In this document: positions 2,842-57,148 of the stretch, in pieces | How the letters are laid out: each line of letters opens with the position of its first letter | How positions within the stretch are numbered: the stretch's first letter is position 1 | Assembly: GCF_036507355.1 (NCBI RefSeq) | Contig: NZ_AP027877.1 | Reading direction: 5' to 3' (one strand) | DNA: 64,000 bases | Origin: Escherichia coli | GTDB lineage: Bacteria > Pseudomonadota > Gammaproteobacteria > Enterobacterales > Enterobacteriaceae | Program-made: the position numbers and the translations under genes | Notes under the pieces: model-generated | The model's input: the letters and a program-made list of their open reading frames with translations, nothing else | The model's database searches: none | What the model was told of the DNA's origin: nothing

Positions 2842-3027
2842 TTAACTTTGTAACGTCATAGAGTCAAAGAAAAAGGCAGCCTGTGGTTGCCTTTTGCCAA
2901 TAATTCGCACACATTGCGGGTTACTGCTTTATTTTCGTTCAGTGCTGATAACGAACATCAACCTGCAAAACGAAGCGCATAGTTTAAAATGGCTATCATC
3001 AATACGCTATATCTGATGGAAAAAAAT

Positions 3028-3612
3028 ATGCCTAAACTTATTTTAGCCTCCACCTCGCCCTGGCGTCGCGCTCTTCTGGAAAAACTGCAAATCTCTTTTG
3101 AATGTGCAGCACCCGAGGTCGACGAAACTCCACACAGCGACGAATCACCGCGACAGTTGGTGCTTCGACTGGCACAAGAAAAAGCGCAATCTCTGGCGTC
3201 ACGTTATCCGGATCATTTAATTATTGGTTCAGACCAGGTATGTGTTCTTGATGGCGAAATCACCGGTAAACCGTTAACGGAAGAAAATGCCCGTCTGCAA
3301 TTACGCAAAGCCAGCGGCAATATCGTCACCTTCTATACTGGACTGGCGTTGTTTAATTCGGCGAATGGGCATCTACAAACAGAAGTGGAGCCTTTTGACG
3401 TCCATTTCCGTCACCTGAGCGAGGCGGAGATTGATAATTACGTGCGTAAAGAGCATCCCCTGCACTGCGCGGGTAGCTTTAAGAGTGAAGGATTTGGCAT
3501 TACTCTGTTTGAGCGTTTAGAGGGGCGTGATCCTAACACGCTGGTTGGTTTACCGCTAATCGCGCTGTGTCAGATGTTACGTCGGGAAGGGAAAAACCCG
3601 CTGATGGGATAG
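3028..3612 (+). CDS. yceF: Maf-like nucleotide pyrophosphatase
   Basis: ORF track 2989..3612; start moved to the internal [20 protein letters not shown], giving 194 aa. Confidence 0.88.
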
Positions 3613-4683: not shown

Positions 4684-5255
4684 GGTTGGCGATTCTAATT
4701 AGCCAACAGGATTCGCGCCACTCATTTTTCTATGCTTATATTTACTTTTGCACCTTATTACTTCACTGCGTGATCACTTTATTGATGGTTATTAAACCAA
4801 TCACCAGCAAGAAGTGAAAAAACTGTGAGTAAGCGGGTGATAAATGGTAAAAGTCATCTTGCTATAACAAGGCTTGCAGTGGAATAATGAGGCCGTTTCC
4901 GTGTCCATCCTTGTTAAAACAAGAAATTTTACGGAATAACCCATTTTGCCCGACCGATCATCCACGCAGCAATGGCGTAAGACGTATTGATCTTTCAGGC
5001 AGTTAGCGGGCTGCGGGTTGCAGTCCTTACCGGTAGATGGAAATATTTCTGGAGAGTAATACCCAGTCTGTTTCTTTGATAATTGCGCTGTTTTTCCGCA
5101 TGAAAAACGGGCAACCGACACTCTGCGCCTCTTTGAGCTGACGATAACCGTGAGGTTGGCGACGCGACTAGACACGAGGCCATCGGTTCACACCCGGAAA
5201 GGCGTTACTTTGCCCGCAGCTTAGTCGTCAATGTAAGAATAATGAGTAAGTTACG
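4684..5255 (+). promoter_or_regulatory. rne promoter region and long 5' leader
   Basis: 570-bp non-coding gap upstream of rne; established knowledge that the rne leader is long, structured and autoregulated; promoter positions not determined here. Confidence 0.55.
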
Positions 5256-26961: not shown

Positions 26962-27011
26962 TATCCTTTGTGTCCGGCAAAAACATCCCTTCAGCCGGAG
27001 CATAGAGATTA

Positions 27012-28058
27012 ATGACTGCACCATCCCAGGTATTAAAGATCCGCCGCCCAGACGACTGGCACCTTCACCTCCGCGATGGCGACATGTTAAAAACTGTCGT
27101 GCCGTATACCAGCGAAATTTATGGACGGGCTATCGTAATGCCCAATCTGGCTCCGCCCGTGACCACCGTTGAGGCTGCCGTGGCGTATCGCCAACGTATT
27201 CTTGACGCCGTACCTGCCGGGCACGATTTCACCCCATTGATGACCTGTTATTTAACAGATTCGCTGGATCCTAATGAGCTGGAGCGCGGATTTAACGAAG
27301 GCGTGTTCACCGCTGCAAAACTTTACCCGGCAAACGCAACCACTAACTCCAGCCACGGCGTGACGTCAATTGACGCAATCATGCCGGTACTTGAGCGCAT
27401 GGAAAAAATCGGTATGCCGCTACTGGTGCATGGTGAAGTGACACATGCAGATATCGACATTTTTGATCGTGAAGCGCGCTTTATAGAAAGCGTGATGGAA
27501 CCTCTGCGCCAGCGCCTGACTGCGCTGAAAGTCGTTTTTGAGCACATCACCACCAAAGATGCTGCCGACTATGTCCGTGACGGAAATGAACGGCTGGCTG
27601 CCACCATCACTCCGCAGCATCTGATGTTTAACCGCAACCATATGCTGGTTGGAGGCGTGCGTCCGCACCTGTATTGTCTACCCATCCTCAAACGCAATAT
27701 TCACCAACAGGCATTGCGTGAACTGGTCGCCAGCGGTTTTAATCGAGTATTCCTCGGTACGGATTCTGCGCCACATGCACGTCATCGCAAAGAGAGCAGT
27801 TGCGGCTGCGCGGGCTGCTTCAACGCCCCAACCGCGCTGGGCAGTTACGCTACCGTCTTTGAAGAGATGAATGCTCTGCAGCACTTTGAAGCATTCTGTT
27901 CTGTAAACGGCCCGCAGTTCTATGGGTTGCCGGTCAACGACACATTCATCGAACTGGTACGTGAAGAGCAACAGGTTGCTGAAAGCATCGCACTGACTGA
28001 TGACACGCTGGTGCCATTCCTCGCCGGGGAAACGGTACGCTGGTCTGTTAAACAATAA
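27012..28058 (+). CDS. pyrC: Dihydroorotase
   Basis: ORF track 348 aa, [23 protein letters not shown] metal-binding motif. Confidence 0.96.
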
Positions 28059-28092
28059 AAATCGTAGCTTCCTGTTGTCATTAGGTTATTTT

Positions 28093-28112
28093 ACCTGTGT
28101 AAATAACCAGTA
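28093..28112. promoter_or_regulatory. LexA (SOS) box upstream of dinI
   Basis: ACCTGTGTAAATAACCAGTA, CTGT-N8-CCAG pattern about 20 nt upstream of the dinI start. Confidence 0.72.
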
Positions 28113-28131
28113 TATTCAACAGGGGGCTATT

Positions 28132-28377
28132 ATGCGAATTGAAGTCACCATAGCGAAAACTTCTCCATTGCCAGCTGGGGCTATTGACGCCCTGGCTGGC
28201 GAACTTTCCCGCCGTATTCAGTATGCGTTTCCTGATAATGAAGGCCACGTATCGGTACGTTACGCCGCAGCGAATAATTTATCGGTTATTGGCGCGACAA
28301 AAGAAGATAAACAGCGCATTAGCGAAATTCTCCAGGAAACGTGGGAAAGCGCCGATGACTGGTTTGTCAGCGAATAA
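28132..28377 (+). CDS. dinI: DNA damage-inducible protein I
   Basis: Internal start MRIEVTIAKTSPLPAGAIDALAGEL within ORF track 28000..28377; 81 aa. Confidence 0.92.
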   Translation: MRIEVTIAKTSPLPAGAIDALAGELSRRIQYAFPDNEGHVSVRYAAANNLSVIGATKEDKQRISEILQETWESADDWFVSE

Positions 28378-28398
28378 TATGCAGTGATTTTTGTTTTT

Positions 28399-28424
28399 GC
28401 CGGGTCGCCCCGGCTTTTTTATTT
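28399..28424 (+). terminator. Intrinsic terminator after dinI
   Basis: gccgggtcgccccggc hairpin plus a T-run. Confidence 0.6.
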
Positions 28425-36106: not shown

Positions 36107-36215
36107 TGCCAGATGCGACGTGAACACCTTACCTAACCTACAAAATCTCGCAAAATCAATAAATTGCAGGAACGATGTAGGCCTGATAAGCGTAGCGCAT
36201 CAGGCAACTACGTTT

Positions 36216-40398: not shown

Positions 40399-40680
40399 TC
40401 AGCACGCTGGCTCATGGATTAAGCACCTGATTGCAACCGTTTTCACTTTCCGTGCTTCTCCTAAAGACAGAAGCATCGACTTCGTGTAGGGTTTGCCAGC
40501 AAATTTATTTATCAACCGTCTTACAGACGCTTCCATTCTGGTTAGTGGTAGCGATGATGCTATGCATAAAAACCTTGAAGCCTGCGCCTGGCGCGGTCAG
40601 GTAGGTGTCGCTATGGCAACAAGCCTAAAGGCATAACCCGACAGGGATAAGACGAAAAATCCGAGATTAGTTAACCATAT

Positions 40681-41838
40681 ATGAATCCAGTACCCGCGCA
40701 ACGTGAATATTTCCTCGACTCCATCCGCGCCTGGCTGATGTTGTTAGGGATCCCTTTTCATATTTCTTTAATCTATTCGAGCCATACATGGCATGTGAAT
40801 AGCGCCGAACCGTCATTGTGGCTGACCCTTTTTAATGACTTCATCCACTCGTTCCGCATGCAGGTATTTTTCGTTATATCCGGGTACTTTTCCTACATGC
40901 TTTTTTTACGCTATCCCTTGAAAAAATGGTGGAAAGTACGTGTCGAACGTGTAGGGATCCCGATGTTAACAGCCATCCCCTTACTGACATTGCCGCAATT
41001 TATTATGCTGCAATACGTCAAAGGGAAAGCGGAAAGTTGGCCTGGGCTGTCATTGTATGACAAATATAATACGTTAGCCTGGGAATTAATATCACACCTG
41101 TGGTTTTTACTGGTGTTAGTGGTCATAACGACGCTGTGCGTATGGATATTTAAACGCATCAGAAATAATTTAGAAAATTCTGATAAAACGAATAAAAAAT
41201 TCTCGATGGTAAAACTATCGGTGATTTTTTTGTGCCTCGGCATCGGTTATGCGGTAATAAGAAGAACGATTTTTATTGTGTATCCGCCCATTCTGAGTAA
41301 TGGCATGTTCAATTTTATTGTCATGCAAACGCTATTTTATTTACCGTTCTTTATCCTCGGCGCACTGGCTTTCATTTTCCCTCATCTTAAAGCCTTGTTT
41401 ACCACGCCGTCTCGTGGCTGTACCCTCGCAGCAGCATTGGCATTTGTCGCTTACTTACTCAACCAGCGCTATGGCAGTGGCGATGCCTGGATGTACGAAA
41501 CCGAGTCTGTGATCACCATGGTCCTCGGTCTGTGGATGGTGAATGTGGTCTTCTCCTTCGGCCACCGTTTGCTTAACTTCCAGTCAGCGCGGGTGACTTA
41601 CTTTGTTAACGCATCGCTATTTATCTATCTGGTTCACCACCCGTTAACGCTGTTTTTCGGCGCATACATTACACCGCACATCACCTCCAACTGGCTTGGT
41701 TTTCTCTGTGGCCTGATATTCGTAGTAGGGATTGCGATAATTCTGTATGAAATTCATTTACGCATCCCGTTACTGAAGTTTTTGTTTTCTGGTAAACCGG
41801 TTGTTAAGCGTGAGAACGATAAAGCACCAGCCCGTTAA
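40681..41838 (+). CDS. opgC: OPG succinyltransferase
   Basis: ORF track 385 aa, polytopic membrane acyltransferase. Confidence 0.92.
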
Positions 41839-45674: not shown

Positions 45675-46427
45675 GTTGTCACCCTGGACCTGGTCGTACA
45701 TTTAAGAAATTAAATCATTTCAACTTGGTTGTTAACGCAACCTGTATTTTGTTAACGCTGCGTTACGATGGAAAGTATGTCTGCGGAAATATTTTTAATA
45801 ACTCACCCGCGCGTTGTATTTTTCTTTTTTTGTTCATACCAAAGTATTAAAACCCACGTAAATACGCTGTTATCTACGCAAAAAATATTTTGTTTTCTTT
45901 TAAATCTCCGTTTTCCGCTAGCAAAAAACACCAGACAGTCATTCTTCTTGCCCGTCGCTGATTGCTGCGATATGTCTTGCGCACAAGCCGTGACAAACCT
46001 CGTCTTTTTGCAGTAAAAAATTGTCCACGGTGGTGTGGAGAAAAAACAAGAACGTTTTACATGACGAAAGGACTACACCGAAATATTTTTTATATGCATT
46101 ATTAGTAAGTTAGCACCATTTGTATGATTTTTTAAAATTGTGCAATAAAAACCAAATGTACAACTTTTCTATCATTCCTAAACTTAATAAAACCTTAAAG
46201 TTAACATTTTAATATAATGAGTTACATTTAGTTACATGTTTAACACTTGATTTAAGATTTGTAATGGCTAGATTGAAATCAGATGTAATCCATTAGTTTT
46301 ATATTTTACCCATTTAGGGCTGATTTATTACTACACACAGCAGTGCAACATCTGTCAGTACTTCTGGTGCTTCTATTTTAGAGGCAGCTGTCAGGTGTGC
46401 GATCAATAAAAAAAGCGGGGTTTCATC
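45675..46427. promoter_or_regulatory. Divergent csgB / csgD intergenic control region
   Basis: 753-bp non-coding, strongly A+T-rich gap between divergent curli operons; individual binding sites not resolved. Confidence 0.8.
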
Positions 46428-51971: not shown

Positions 51972-52059
51972 GGTGAGGTGTCCGAGTGGCTGAAGGAGCA
52001 CGCCTGGAAAGTGTGTATACGGCAACGTATCGGGGGTTCGAATCCCCCCCTCACCGCCA
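51972..52059 (+). tRNA. serX: tRNA-Ser (anticodon GGA)
   Basis: 88-nt sequence ggtgaggtgtccgagtggctgaaggagcacgcctGGAaagtgtg...ggttcgaatccccccctcaccgcca with long variable arm and T-loop GTTCGAATC, followed by a hairpin plus T-run terminator. Confidence 0.92.
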
Positions 52060-54189: not shown

Positions 54190-55578
54190 TTATAGATAGT
54201 ATTTAAAGCCCAAATAAAGGCCTAACGTGTCGCCAAAAAGCGCAAATTCAGAATACCGACTTCCCAGCGCGCTATAGCCACCGGCATAGGCTTCAAGCTG
54301 GTTACTGATAGCACTGAGCGGCGTGGAATAATGCAGGCCCAGCAACGTGCTGCCATCAATGAGATTGACCACCAGCGAAGGCTGCAGCGTCGACTCTCCC
54401 GACAGCGGCAGACTGACCCAGGCGTTCAGATAGTGCTTACCCTGCAGCATCCCCTGATTGGCGGTATTGCTGATTTCTGAAGCCATCAGGTATTTGTAAG
54501 AATCAAATGCCTGATCCAGTGGCGCATAGCCGGTTGTGGTATTGAGGAAGTCAATTAACTCGCGCTGCTGACGCTGTTCAGCGCGCGAATAACCCTCGCT
54601 CTGAAAGTAATACTCAACGCCAAACACGCTGAAATTATCACTGGTGTACTGCCCACCCAGCGCCAGCTCCACGCCGCTTTCATCTTTCGTTTCATAGAGC
54701 GAATCCGGAAACTGATATTCCTCGACCTGCGCCGTCTCACGGTGGGAAAGATGCCGCCATTGCTGGGAGCGGTGGTAGGCTGCGTCGACATTCAGCGTAA
54801 GCTGCGGGGTGTAGTGATAACTGTCAGACAGCGCGAGTGACGGCGATGGTCCGAGCCGCACATTGACTGTCGGCGTGTGCTCACCAAAGCGATGATCGCT
54901 GAAGCTCAGCAGATAGGCTTCGTCGCTGTTTCCCTGCTGATTAGCCGACCAGTTGCCAGACGTCACATAGCGTTTGTCGATGGTGGCTAACTTCGGTATG
55001 ACACTCGCCGAAAACGCATAATCGCGTGTATCCACGCTCATTTTTGCGCCCCACGATGACGCCTGATACGCCGATGTCATTTTGGGATCGTGCAAACGCG
55101 TCGACTGGAATCCGGTGTAATAATGCGTTTGCAAATCAGAAGGCGAACGCAAAAAGAACATTCCTGACGGCGCGGCAAATTTGCCTGCTTCAAATTGAAT
55201 GCTGTCCGAGGCACTATAGACCAGACTGAGGCGGTTAATTAACGCACGCGTGCGGCTATCATCCGTTTCGAATTTCCCTGCGGGTTTAAGCGCATATTCG
55301 TTTATTCCATACAGATTGAGCTTAAGGTCCAGCGTATTGTCGATTATCGAACAACCACTGTTGATGCCAATCCCCGCCTCCTGATAACCGTTGTGACGAG
55401 TGTAGGGATTTTTGCCTGCAATCTGCCAGGCCGAAGCCTGTTTATTGACATAAGACACCTGCTCGTAAAGCGTCACATCGCTGTTTTGTGCCACCTCGTC
55501 ACCTGACAGGCAATCCGCCTGTACCGTCAACGGCAGCGCAACACACAGCAACGAAGAGATCTTCAGCGTACGTTTCAT
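54190..55578 (-). CDS. Putative outer-membrane protein, function unknown
   Basis: ORF track 462 aa; signal peptide MKRTLKISSLLCVALPLTVQA; Tyr/Gly/Ser-rich, no long hydrophobic helices, consistent with a beta-barrel. Confidence 0.55.
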   Translation of the reverse strand: MKRTLKISSLLCVALPLTVQADCLSGDEVAQNSDVTLYEQVSYVNKQASAWQIAGKNPYTRHNGYQEAGIGINSGCSIIDNTLDLKLNLYGINEYALKPAGKFETDDSRTRALINRLSLVYSASDSIQFEAGKFAAPSGMFFLRSPSDLQTHYYTGFQSTRLHDPKMTSAYQASSWGAKMSVDTRDYAFSASVIPKLATIDKRYVTSGNWSANQQGNSDEAYLLSFSDHRFGEHTPTVNVRLGPSPSLALSDSYHYTPQLTLNVDAAYHRSQQWRHLSHRETAQVEEYQFPDSLYETKDESGVELALGGQYTSDNFSVFGVEYYFQSEGYSRAEQRQQRELIDFLNTTTGYAPLDQAFDSYKYLMASEISNTANQGMLQGKHYLNAWVSLPLSGESTLQPSLVVNLIDGSTLLGLHYSTPLSAISNQLEAYAGGYSALGSRYSEFALFGDTLGLYLGFKYYL

Positions 55579-56233
55579 TTCGCACCTCGCTGAATATACT
55601 CTTTGGTGAAATGAAACTCCTGCAGCGATTCCAGACGAACATCGCTGTACTCCATCACTGAATAGTTATTGCCGTGACGGACGTCGGTAACGGTTATTTT
55701 CATGGGTCGCGTTTTCCCCAACACCGGCTGGAAATCCTGATACAACACTTCTTTTATTAACTGGTCATCCTGCGAGTAATAGGCTGCCTTCCACGGGCGA
55801 TTATCACCGTCTTTTTCAACGTAATAGATAACCTTCGGCCAGGTGATATCCGCCGATTTACGCACCAGCGCCAGCTTGTAACACTGCTTTTCAGCACACG
55901 TGACTTCCCCCACCAGGGTCGAGTCATAGGCATATTCAAAGTTAGTGACAATGACATCGCCGTTAGAGATTTGCCCAATTAATCTTTGTTGCCGTGAAAT
56001 AGGCATAGGACGTCGCAGTTCCGGCGTGTAAAACCATAAATCGTACCAGTCGGAAAGCATGATTTTTCCTTTATCTCGCGGCGGATAAATAAAACGCACC
56101 AGCGAGCGTGCATCCGCTTTTTCATTACCCTGCGGTTTCATAAAGCGCATGGAAATATCGAGGACCTGTTTATTCTCTGGCTGGGTTGTGCCCGCTTTAT
56201 ATTCCGTTACCGTCAGCGTGTAACGAAACGGTT

Positions 56234-56242
56234 TATTCGGCG
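56234..56242. repeat. Left 9-bp target-site duplication of IS1 copy 1 (TATTCGGCG)
   Basis: Identical 9-mer directly flanks both IS1 ends. Confidence 0.9.
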
Positions 56243-56297
56243 GGTGATGCTGCCAACTTACTGATTTAGTGTATGATGGTGTTTTTGAGGTGCTCCA

Positions 56298-56573
56298 GTG
56301 GCTTCTGTTTCTATCAGCTGTCCCTCCTGTTCAGCTACTGACGGGGTGGTGCGTAACGGCAAAAGCACCGCCGGACATCAGCGCTATCTCTGCTCTCACT
56401 GTCGTAAAACATGGCAACTGCAGTTCACTTACACCGCTTCTCAACCCGGTACGCACCAGAAAATCATTGATATGGCCATGAATGGCGTTGGATGCCGGGC
56501 AACAGCCCGCATTATGGGCGTTGGCCTCAACACGATTTTACGTCACTTAAAAAACTCAGGCCGCAGTCGGTAA
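56298..56573 (+). CDS. insA: IS1 InsA
   Basis: ORF track 91 aa, zinc-finger CxxC...CxxC. Confidence 0.93.
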
Positions 56574-56995
56574 CCTCGCGCATACAGCCGGGCAGTGACG
56601 TCATCGTCTGCGCGGAAATGGACGAACAGTGGGGCTATGTCGGGGCTAAATCGCGCCAGCGCTGGCTGTTTTACGCGTATGACAGGCTCCGGAAGACGGT
56701 TGTTGCGCACGTATTCGGTGAACGCACGATGGCGACGCTGGGGCGTCTTATGAGCCTGCTGTCACCCTTTGACGTGGTGATATGGATGACGGATGGCTGG
56801 CCGCTGTATGAATCCCGCCTGAAGGGAAAGCTGCACGTAATCAGCAAGCGATATACGCAGCGAATTGAGCGGCATAACCTGAATCTGAGGCAGCACCTGG
56901 CACGGCTGGGACGGAAGTCGCTGTCGTTCTCAAAATCGGTGGAGCTGCATGACAAAGTCATCGGGCATTATCTGAACATAAAACACTATCAATAA
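56492..56995 (+). CDS. insB: IS1 InsB (transposase made as an InsAB' frameshift fusion)
   Basis: ORF track 167 aa, overlaps insA in the -1 frame. Confidence 0.93.
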
Positions 56996-57010
56996 GTTGG
57001 AGTCATTACC

Positions 57011-57019
57011 TATTCGGCG
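57011..57019. repeat. Right 9-bp target-site duplication of IS1 copy 1 (TATTCGGCG)
   Basis: Identical to 56234..56242. Confidence 0.9.
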
Positions 57020-57148
57020 AACGAATTTCGTCAGCGCGACGAATTATCTCCAGCGCCTTATCATCTGTGCTCGCCGCCTGAACGCACGACGTAGCGAGCC
57101 ACAGGCAAGCAAACCACTTGCCGTAAAAAGCCATATTCATAATTAGCC

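What the first reader, a model, noticed from the sequence alone, without database searches (positions are those of the whole stretch)
28093..28112. SOS box on the dinI promoter
ACCTGTGTAAATAACCAGTA fits the LexA CTGT-N8-ACAG half-site pattern (right half CCAG) and sits about 20 nt before the dinI start, consistent with dinI being an SOS gene.
Basis: partly seen in the sequence, partly recalled or inferred. Interest (0 to 1): 0.25.

Follow-up and report, generated by a model that had tools for sequence, protein, structure and literature searches.

The report
dinI SOS box with rare variant
This is the well-known binding site of the LexA repressor in front of the E. coli DNA-damage gene dinI, so it is ordinary, except that this strain's lineage carries one base change at a position that is otherwise invariant and that also lies in the core of the gene's promoter.

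Summary
The 20-mer ACCTGTGTAAATAACCAGTA is at 28093-28112, 19 nt before the ATG of an 81-aa ORF whose protein is identical to K-12 DinI. The gene order is pyrC-dinI-bssS-solA. The site is the orthologue of the experimentally established K-12 dinI LexA operator and matches it at 19 of 20 bases. A LexA matrix built from 17 other K-12 boxes makes it by far the best site in the 64 kb: 18.6 bits against 10.9 for the runner-up, reached by 3 of 200 shuffles. The same box lies upstream of dinI in 80 of 80 Enterobacteriaceae species sampled. One twist: box position 7 (28099) is G here. It is A in all 80 species. The exact G-allele 32-mer was found in none of 5,426 complete E. coli genomes, and the G-allele 24-mer in no metagenome contig. 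A second, non-identical genome of the same rare lineage shares the G, so it is not a sequencing error. The base is both a LexA contact and, on the inferred promoter geometry, the -11 position of the overlapping -10 hexamer (TATAAA to TGTAAA). I predict, but cannot test, somewhat weaker LexA binding and a clearly weaker promoter.

The parts
28093..28112 (+). LexA operator (SOS box) of dinI: ACCTGTGTAAATAACCAGTA
   Evidence: Sequence read. Matches the K-12 operator at 19 of 20 bases. Scores 17.3-18.6 bits with HI 8.3-8.4 on the leave-one-out matrix. Best site in the window. Orthologous box found in 80 of 80 species.
28099..28099 (+). Derived G (A in K-12) at box position 7, which is position 2 (-11) of the inferred -10 hexamer
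   Evidence: Alignment with K-12 and O157. A at this position in 80 of 80 species. The G-allele 32-mer is in 0 of 5,426 complete E. coli genomes, while the A-allele 32-mer is in 4,761. The G-allele 24-mer has 0 metagenome hits, against 30 for the A allele. The G is shared by GCA_016660925.1.
28075..28080 (+). Inferred -35 hexamer TTGTCA
   Evidence: Read from the sequence. It lies 17 nt upstream of the -10. A TTGnnn hexamer sits at the same spacing in 72 of 78 species and in both Buttiauxella species. It is part of the top-scoring promoter combination when 28099 is A. The assignment is inferred, not mapped.
28098..28103 (+). Inferred -10 hexamer TGTAAA (TATAAA in K-12), lying inside the operator
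   Evidence: Box positions 6-11 are TATAAA in 71, TATATA in 5 and TATACA in 2 of 78 species. In my rough sigma-70 model this promoter combination falls out of the top five with the G allele.
28109..28111 (+). Inferred transcription start, inside the 3' end of the operator
   Evidence: Inferred from the usual 6-8 nt distance after the -10 hexamer. [quoted passage not shown] Not mapped for this strain.
28122..28126 (+). Shine-Dalgarno GGGGG
   Evidence: Read from the sequence. It lies 5 nt before the ATG. A cagggggc-type stretch before the ATG is present in nearly all orthologues.
28132..28377 (+). dinI coding sequence (81 aa plus stop)
   Evidence: ORF and translation. Annotated as dinI in E. 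coli genomes. Pfam PF06183 DinI, E = 2.1e-29. Protein identical to K-12 DinI.
28399..28424 (+). Intrinsic terminator after dinI (GCCGGG-TCGC-CCCGGC followed by a T-run)
   Evidence: Terminator scan. The same structure is found in the K-12 copy.

Best explanation
The 20-mer is the LexA operator of the chromosomal dinI gene.

Mechanism, from established SOS biology:
- The operator overlaps the sigma-70 promoter of dinI: -35 TTGTCA at 28075-28080, a 17-nt spacer, the -10 at 28098-28103, and an inferred start near 28110.
- A LexA dimer bound to the two CTG/CAG motifs therefore excludes RNA polymerase.
- After DNA damage, RecA filaments trigger LexA self-cleavage, the operator is vacated, and dinI is transcribed.
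- DinI then modulates RecA filaments.

Shown here: the sequence, its orthology to the K-12 operator, its matrix score, and its conservation together with the promoter hexamers.

Inferred: the promoter assignment and the transcription start.

This strain's lineage has a derived A-to-G change at box position 7. I predict two effects:
- LexA binding is moderately weaker, because the thymine opposite A7 is the one whose methyl group LexA contacts.
- Promoter strength is more severely reduced, because the change removes the -11 adenine of a -10 hexamer that already lacks T at -7.

The net expectation is a dinI that is still LexA-controlled but expressed at a lower level.
For: Identity and orthology:
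- The gene order pyrC-dinI-bssS-solA and the annotations match E. coli genomes.
- The box matches K-12 at 19 of 20 bases.

Matrix score:
- The site scores 17.3-18.6 bits, within the range of the 17 training boxes (13.3-28.9 bits).
- It is the top site in the window, and 3 of 200 shuffles reach its score.

Conservation:
- The box is present in 80 of 80 species, and CTGTATA is invariant.
- The -10 is TATAAA, TATATA or TATACA in 78 of 78 species. A TTGnnn -35 sits 17 nt upstream in 72 of 78.

Experimental literature on orthologues:
- K-12 dinI operator EMSA (PMC5999292).
- 49-fold induction and HI 4.8 (PMC11228462).
- Salmonella box 19 bp from the ATG, HI 4.00, 22.8-fold induction (PMC8072944).
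- Klebsiella box overlapping the start site, with LexA ChIP (PMC10907235).

Effect of the G:
- Operator residues 14-18 contact LexA. At position 14, which mirrors position 7, T binds tighter than A, C or G (PMC5999292, section 10).
- The G costs 2.2-4.8 bits and raises HI by 1.6-3.4.
- A-11 is flipped out by sigma. An A-11T change costs up to about 1000-fold in polymerase binding to fork-junction probes (PMC3753650).
- In my rough sigma-70 model the canonical promoter drops out of the top five with the G allele.
Against: - No binding or expression data exist for this allele.
- The E. coli dinI transcription start was not retrieved from the literature. The -10 assignment rests on hexamer quality, spacing, conservation and the Klebsiella report.
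- The A-11 data cited are for A-to-T on model fork-junction probes, not A-to-G in this promoter.
- In the matrix the G is tolerated. The mirror-image substitution (C at position 14) occurs in 4 of the 17 training operators; by my reading of the Table 4 sequences these are lexA, yebG, polB and uvrD. LexA control may therefore be little changed.
- No terminator was detected between pyrC and dinI. Read-through from pyrC could supply dinI mRNA regardless of the promoter.
Confidence: 0.9

Rival explanations
1. In this lineage the site is a decaying regulatory element. The G at -11 has effectively silenced the dinI promoter, so the box is a relic and dinI is no longer a working SOS gene here, even though its coding sequence is intact.
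For: - The -10 becomes TGTAAA, which lacks both flipped-out bases, A-11 and T-7.
- The position is invariant in 80 species, and the G allele was not found in 5,426 E. coli genomes, which implies strong purifying selection elsewhere.
- The best alternative promoter in the rough model is TTTACC-15-TATATT, with an off-size 15-nt spacer. By my inference from the usual -10-to-start distance, its start would fall in the Shine-Dalgarno sequence.
Against: - The DinI protein is identical to K-12 and the rest of the intergenic region is unchanged.
- The -35 and the rest of the -10 are intact.
- Weak -10 elements can still work, especially on derepression.
- Read-through from pyrC is possible, since no terminator was detected.
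- There are no expression data.
Confidence: 0.3
2. The match is a chance occurrence of a LexA-like palindrome with no regulatory role.
For: The simple CTGT-N8-ACAG pattern with one mismatch is at chance frequency in the window: 15 observed against 18.3 expected.
Against: - The full-matrix score is the best in the window by 7.7 bits, and 3 of 200 shuffles reach it.
- It matches an experimentally validated operator at 19 of 20 bases.
- It is conserved in 80 of 80 species.
Confidence: 0.01
3. The G at 28099 is a sequencing or assembly error, and the real sequence is the ordinary K-12-type operator.
For: - The G allele is absent from 5,426 complete E. coli genomes.
- It is absent from the 100,044 species-representative genomes and from 241 million metagenome records.
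Against: - GCA_016660925.1 carries the same G.
- That assembly is close to the window but not identical: 5 mismatches in 15,227 bases, and 2 mismatches plus 1 gap in 17,536.
- By my coordinate arithmetic, its contig ends inside the window's span, so it is not the same record.
Confidence: 0.03

Closest known systems
E. coli K-12 dinI LexA operator (ACCTGTATAAATAACCAGTA)
   Same: - Same locus, between pyrC and dinI, with the same 19-nt distance to the ATG.
- Same -35 hexamer and spacer, and 19 of 20 box bases identical.
- Identical DinI protein.
   Different: - Position 7 is G instead of A.
- The leave-one-out matrix score falls from 20.8-22.1 to 17.3-18.6 bits, and HI rises from 4.95-6.8 to 8.3-8.4.
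- The overlapping -10 changes from TATAAA to TGTAAA.
Salmonella and Klebsiella chromosomal dinI operators
   Same: - Salmonella: box 19 bp from the ATG, HI 4.00, 22.8-fold induction (PMC8072944).
- Klebsiella: box overlapping the start site, with LexA ChIP (PMC10907235).
- The CTGTATA core and the promoter geometry are shared across 80 species.
   Different: - Those boxes are closer to consensus. For example, S. enterica arizonae has AACTGTATATATATACAGTA at 29.3 bits.
- All of them have A at position 7.
- In Klebsiella the dinI mRNA also yields the DinR sRNA, which that paper describes as Klebsiella-specific.
K-12 LexA operators with a CACAG half-site (lexA box 1, yebG, polB)
   Same: They carry, in their right half-site, the mirror image of this site's CTGTG left half-site, and they are bona fide LexA targets (sequences from PMC3009722, Table 4; counts).
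   Different: Their other half-site is a good CTGTAT. Here the other half is already degenerate (A at position 14, C at position 15), so neither half keeps the thymine contact at the position-14 equivalent.

Membership tests
E. coli-type LexA operator (SOS box) | Two CTG/CAG motifs spaced exactly ten base pairs apart within a 20-bp imperfect palindrome (as defined in PMC5999292, introduction) | tested here: met
   CTG is at 28095-28097 and CAG at 28108-28110.
E. coli-type LexA operator (SOS box) | Overall similarity to validated boxes (matrix score or heterology index within their range) | tested here: met
   - 17.3-18.6 bits, against a training range of 13.3-28.9 bits.
- HI 8.3-8.4, against a training range of 0.3-12.0.
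- Top site in the window, and 3 of 200 shuffles reach it.
E. coli-type LexA operator (SOS box) | Position overlapping or next to the promoter of the regulated gene | tested here: met
   The box spans the inferred -10 hexamer and start site, 19 nt before the dinI ATG. The geometry is conserved in 80 species. The start site itself is inferred.
E. coli-type LexA operator (SOS box) | Consensus base at the LexA-contacted position 7/14 (A on the top strand of the left half-site, T at position 14) | tested here: not met
   Position 7 is G here. PMC5999292 reports that T at position 14 binds tighter than A, C or G. This is a modulating position, not a position required for membership: 4 of the 17 training boxes carry the mirror-image substitution.
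E. coli-type LexA operator (SOS box) | LexA binds this DNA in vitro or in vivo | not testable with these tools
   Shown in the literature only for the K-12 allele (PMC5999292, Fig 3D). Needs EMSA or ChIP on the G allele.
E. coli-type LexA operator (SOS box) | The downstream gene is induced by DNA damage in a lexA-dependent way | not testable with these tools
   Shown for K-12 (49-fold, PMC11228462), Salmonella and Klebsiella, but not for this lineage.
Sigma-70 promoter | A -10 hexamer with A at position 2 and T at position 6 (TAnnnT) | tested here: not met
   The hexamer is TGTAAA at 28098-28103. The consensus scan finds no plus-strand promoter here. The K-12 hexamer TATAAA also fails the T-at-6 criterion of that scan, but it keeps A at position 2.
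Sigma-70 promoter | A -35 hexamer close to TTGACA, 16-18 nt upstream of the -10 | tested here: met
   TTGTCA at 28075-28080 with a 17-nt spacer. A TTGnnn hexamer is conserved at this spacing in 72 of 78 species.
DinI protein family (the regulated gene) | Significant match to Pfam PF06183 and orthology to E. coli DinI | tested here: met
   E = 2.1e-29 and 102 bits against a cut-off of 24.2. Identical to K-12 DinI.

The most novel reading that the evidence does not exclude
A rare E. coli lineage has fixed a single base change at a position invariant in 80 Enterobacteriaceae species. The exact allele was found in none of 5,426 complete E. coli genomes searched. The change hits a LexA contact and, on the inferred geometry, the -11 adenine of the overlapping dinI promoter. 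This would make it a natural regulatory mutant that lowers or re-times DinI production and so alters how the SOS response is damped in that lineage.
Probability: 0.45. Interest if true: 0.3.

Novelty: already known. Interest (0 to 1): 0.15.

Why it matters
As an element it matters little. The dinI SOS box is a textbook LexA site, and finding it here only confirms that the window is an ordinary E. coli chromosome segment.

The single-base variant is a small natural experiment. One substitution lies where repressor contact and promoter melting overlap, at a site that purifying selection keeps constant across the family. If it changes dinI expression, it would show how operator-promoter overlap constrains SOS box evolution. 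It would also provide a natural allele for studying DinI dosage effects on RecA. [quoted passage not shown]

Tried and rejected
- **Half-site pattern as evidence.** Rejected. CTGT-N8-ACAG with one mismatch is at chance level. The only perfect match, at 63383-63398, is not among the 15 best sites on the full matrix, so it scores below 5.9 bits.
- **Identifying the lineage through PyrC.** Failed. This exact PyrC is listed in 55,916 blocks of the collection. SolA, MurJ and MdtG turned out to be rare and served as lineage markers.
- **Shigella origin.** Considered because of the IS1 copies and the 99.2% best identity. Not supported: all flgA-N ORFs have roughly the lengths I recall for K-12 (my own comparison), and the lineage-specific proteins are labelled E. 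coli.
- **"Two Buttiauxella species lack the box."** Wrong. My first scan covered only 110 nt upstream. The box is there, displaced by an insertion of about 126 nt.
- **Alternative promoters created by the G.** I checked by eye for an extended -10 (TGn) and scored all combinations with the rough model. None is convincing. TATATT at 28111-28116 is the best -10-like hexamer, but it has no -35, is not conserved across species, and its inferred start would fall inside the Shine-Dalgarno sequence.
- **Per-operator half-lives from PMC5999292.** No supplementary files are held.
- **The original DinI paper, PMC1170659.** Not held.
- **More assemblies of the lineage.** The contig look-up collapses similar places. 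Only GCA_016660925.1 was returned for the lineage. A Logan contig sharing MurJ turned out to be a different lineage with the A allele.

Full report
**1. Observation**

Window 28093-28112 reads ACCTGTGTAAATAACCAGTA. CTG occupies box positions 3-5 and CAG positions 16-18. The box ends 19 nt before the ATG at 28132, which opens an 81-aa ORF ending at 28377.

The neighbours are a 348-aa ORF upstream (27012-28058) and 85-aa and 372-aa ORFs downstream. In E. coli genomes these are annotated pyrC, dinI, bssS and, for the 372-aa ORF, N-methyl-L-tryptophan oxidase, the solA product. The ORF matches Pfam DinI at E = 2.1e-29, and its protein is identical to K-12 DinI.

**2. Is it more than chance?**

CTGT-N8-ACAG with one mismatch occurs 15 times in the window, against 18.3 +/- 4.4 in shuffles.

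I therefore built a 20-position matrix from the K-12 LexA boxes in Table 4 of PMC3009722, leaving dinI out to avoid circularity.
- The site scores 17.3 bits with the matrix as listed and 18.6 bits with the symmetrised matrix. That is inside the range of the 17 training boxes but in its lower part.
- Scanning the whole window, it is the best site by a wide margin. The runner-up scores 10.9 bits.
- Only 3 of 200 dinucleotide shuffles of the window contain any site that good.

**3. Orthology**

Aligned with a K-12 derivative (MC4100) and with O157:H7, the pyrC-dinI intergenic region is identical except for one base. K-12 and O157 read ACCTGTATAAATAACCAGTA, and the window has G instead of A at 28099, box position 7.

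The K-12 sequence is the published dinI operator (PMC3009722, Table 4). For K-12 the literature reports:
- LexA binding to the dinI operator by EMSA (PMC5999292, Fig 3D legend);
- 49-fold induction by AZT, 39-fold of it lexA-dependent, and a heterology index of 4.8 (PMC11228462, Table 1).

My leave-one-out HI for the K-12 box is 4.95, which agrees with the published value.

**4. Conservation**

A scan of species-representative genomes with DinI returned 80 loci from Escherichia, Citrobacter, Salmonella, Enterobacter, Kluyvera, Kosakonia, Buttiauxella and other genera.
- 78 loci have a high-scoring box, in nearly all of them 18-20 nt before the ATG.
- The two Buttiauxella loci that seemed to lack it have it 145 nt upstream. 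About 126 nt are inserted between the box and the Shine-Dalgarno sequence.
- So the box is present in 80 of 80 species. CTGTATA (box positions 3-9) is invariant, and position 7 is A in all of them.

The box overlaps a conserved promoter.
- Box positions 6-11 are TATAAA in 71 species, TATATA in 5 and TATACA in 2.
- A TTGnnn hexamer lies exactly 17 nt upstream in 72 of 78 species, and also in both Buttiauxella species.
- In the window these elements are TTGTCA at 28075-28080 and TGTAAA at 28098-28103.
- The implied start is near 28110, inside the 3' end of the box. [quoted passage not shown]
- Salmonella dinI also has its box 19 bp from the ATG, with HI 4.00 and 22.8-fold induction (PMC8072944).

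**5. The variant**

The G is rare.
- The exact 75-mer is in no complete E. coli genome at full length.
- A 32-mer centred on the G, which can only seed through the G, finds 0 of 5,426 genomes. The A-allele control finds 4,761.
- The G-allele 24-mer has no match in 100,044 species-representative genomes or in 241 million metagenome records. The A-allele 24-mer is on 30 metagenome contigs.
- Other natural variants of the box exist: C2A in L006, A20G in L007, and A1G in L062. None touches position 7.

The G is nevertheless real.
- The window's exact SolA, MurJ and MdtG proteins are rare, each seen on 6 contigs.
- The contig that carries them in GCA_016660925.1 has the G.
- That assembly is close to the window but not identical: 5 mismatches in 15,227 bases, and 2 mismatches plus 1 gap in 17,536.
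- A Logan contig that shares only the MurJ protein is 98.1% identical at the DNA level and has A.
- The window's best identity to any complete E. coli genome over 22 kb is 99.2%. It belongs to a sparsely sampled E. coli lineage.
- Because every outgroup has A, the G is the derived state.

Limit of this search: a genome with G7 plus a second change within 14 nt would escape.

**6. What the G should do (inference)**

*LexA binding.*
- PMC5999292 states that operator residues 14-18 make base-specific contacts with LexA.
- At position 14, T binds tighter than A, C or G, because its methyl group sits in a hydrophobic pocket. Position 15 matters more than position 14.
- Position 7 of the left half-site is the dyad mirror of position 14, so G7 puts a C where that thymine would be.
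- The right half of the dinI box already has A at 14 and C at 15. With the G, neither half-site keeps that thymine contact.
- My matrix puts the cost at 2.2-4.8 bits, with HI rising by 1.6-3.4 to about 8.3. That is the region of uvrD and dinG in the published HI table.
- Binding should survive. The mirror-image substitution occurs in 4 of the 17 training operators; from the Table 4 sequences I read these as lexA, yebG, polB and uvrD.

*Promoter.*
- The same base is position 2 (-11) of the -10 hexamer.
- A-11 and T-7 are the two bases flipped out by sigma-70. [quoted passage not shown]
- The dinI -10 already lacks T-7, so TGTAAA lacks both.
- In a rough model based on textbook consensus frequencies (my own, uncalibrated), TTGTCA-17-TATAAA is the best combination when 28099 is A. 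With G it falls out of the top five.
- The nearest alternative, TTTACC-15-TATATT, has a 15-nt spacer. Its inferred start would fall in the Shine-Dalgarno sequence, and TATATT is not conserved across species.

I therefore expect lower maximal dinI expression, with LexA control retained but looser. No terminator was detected between pyrC and dinI, so read-through could add LexA-independent transcripts. That is speculation.

**7. Comparison with what is known, and verdict**

This works like, and is, the dinI SOS box. Every sequence-level membership criterion that I could test is met. The exception is the consensus base at position 7, which modulates affinity rather than defines a box. LexA binding and damage induction for this allele cannot be tested with these tools.

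- The element is already known.
- The only new item is a lineage-specific substitution at an otherwise invariant position where repressor contact and promoter melting overlap.
- Interest is low (0.15). If the substitution proved to change SOS dynamics it would be a modest, tidy natural example (interest about 0.3).

Noticed in passing
window 56242-57010 and 59427-60195: Two IS1 copies form a 769-nt inverted repeat that is 100% complementary, with 2,416 nt between them. Each has a 167-aa ORF; the one scanned (56492-56992) matches the IS1 transposase family. The intervening DNA holds an FtsX/MacB-like permease ORF. An ORF for a CSS-EAL protein (60190-61386) stops at the IS1 edge with only the first 107 of 236 EAL profile positions, so it looks truncated. 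No complete E. coli genome covers 80% or more of 55200-61500 in one place.
   Followed up: partly
L103 and L121, about 1360-1483 (Buttiauxella): An insertion of about 126 nt lies between the dinI LexA box/promoter and the Shine-Dalgarno sequence, which moves the box to 145 nt before the ATG. From memory the inserted sequence resembles the ERIC enterobacterial intergenic repeat. Rfam gives only a sub-threshold hit (V_AS5, 31 bits). It would add a long structured leader to dinI mRNA.
   Followed up: partly
L074 and L075, about 1439-1500 (Trabulsiella): The dinI box lies 60-62 nt before the ATG instead of 19. About 42 extra nt follow a first GGGGG stretch.
   Followed up: no
L006 2582-2601, L007 2582-2601, L062 about 1462-1481: Other natural single-base variants of the E. 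coli dinI box exist. C2A (AACTGT...) improves the matrix score to about 25 bits. A20G and A1G lower it slightly. In L003 the base just before the box is A instead of T. None affects position 7.
   Followed up: partly
window 28391-28393: There are three extra bases (TTG) relative to K-12 in the dinI 3' untranslated region, just before the terminator stem at 28399-28414. The DinI protein is unchanged.
   Followed up: no
window 28059-28092: No intrinsic terminator was detected between the pyrC stop codon and the dinI promoter, either here or in K-12. Read-through from pyrC into dinI is therefore possible.
   Followed up: no
window 63383-63398 and 40673-40692: - CTGTCATTAGATACAG is the only perfect CTGT-N8-ACAG in the window, but it is not among the 15 best full-matrix sites (below 5.9 bits).
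- AACCATATATGAATCCAGTA, just upstream of the ORF that starts at 40681, is the runner-up at 10.9 bits. That is below the mean best score of shuffled windows (12.6).
- Both look like chance matches.
   Followed up: partly
window 4895-5231, 2866-3034 (-), 26962-27011, 36142-36184, 46281-46372, 51972-52056: Rfam matches at gathering score: the RNase E 5' UTR element, SraB sRNA, the PyrC leader (directly before pyrC), ES036, ES056, and one tRNA. All are expected for this E. coli chromosome region.
   Followed up: no
window 18000-40000: The best identity to any of 5,426 complete E. coli genomes is only 99.2% over 22 kb. The window's exact SolA, MurJ and MdtG alleles are each seen on only 6 contigs. 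The window comes from a sparsely sampled E. coli lineage.
   Followed up: partly
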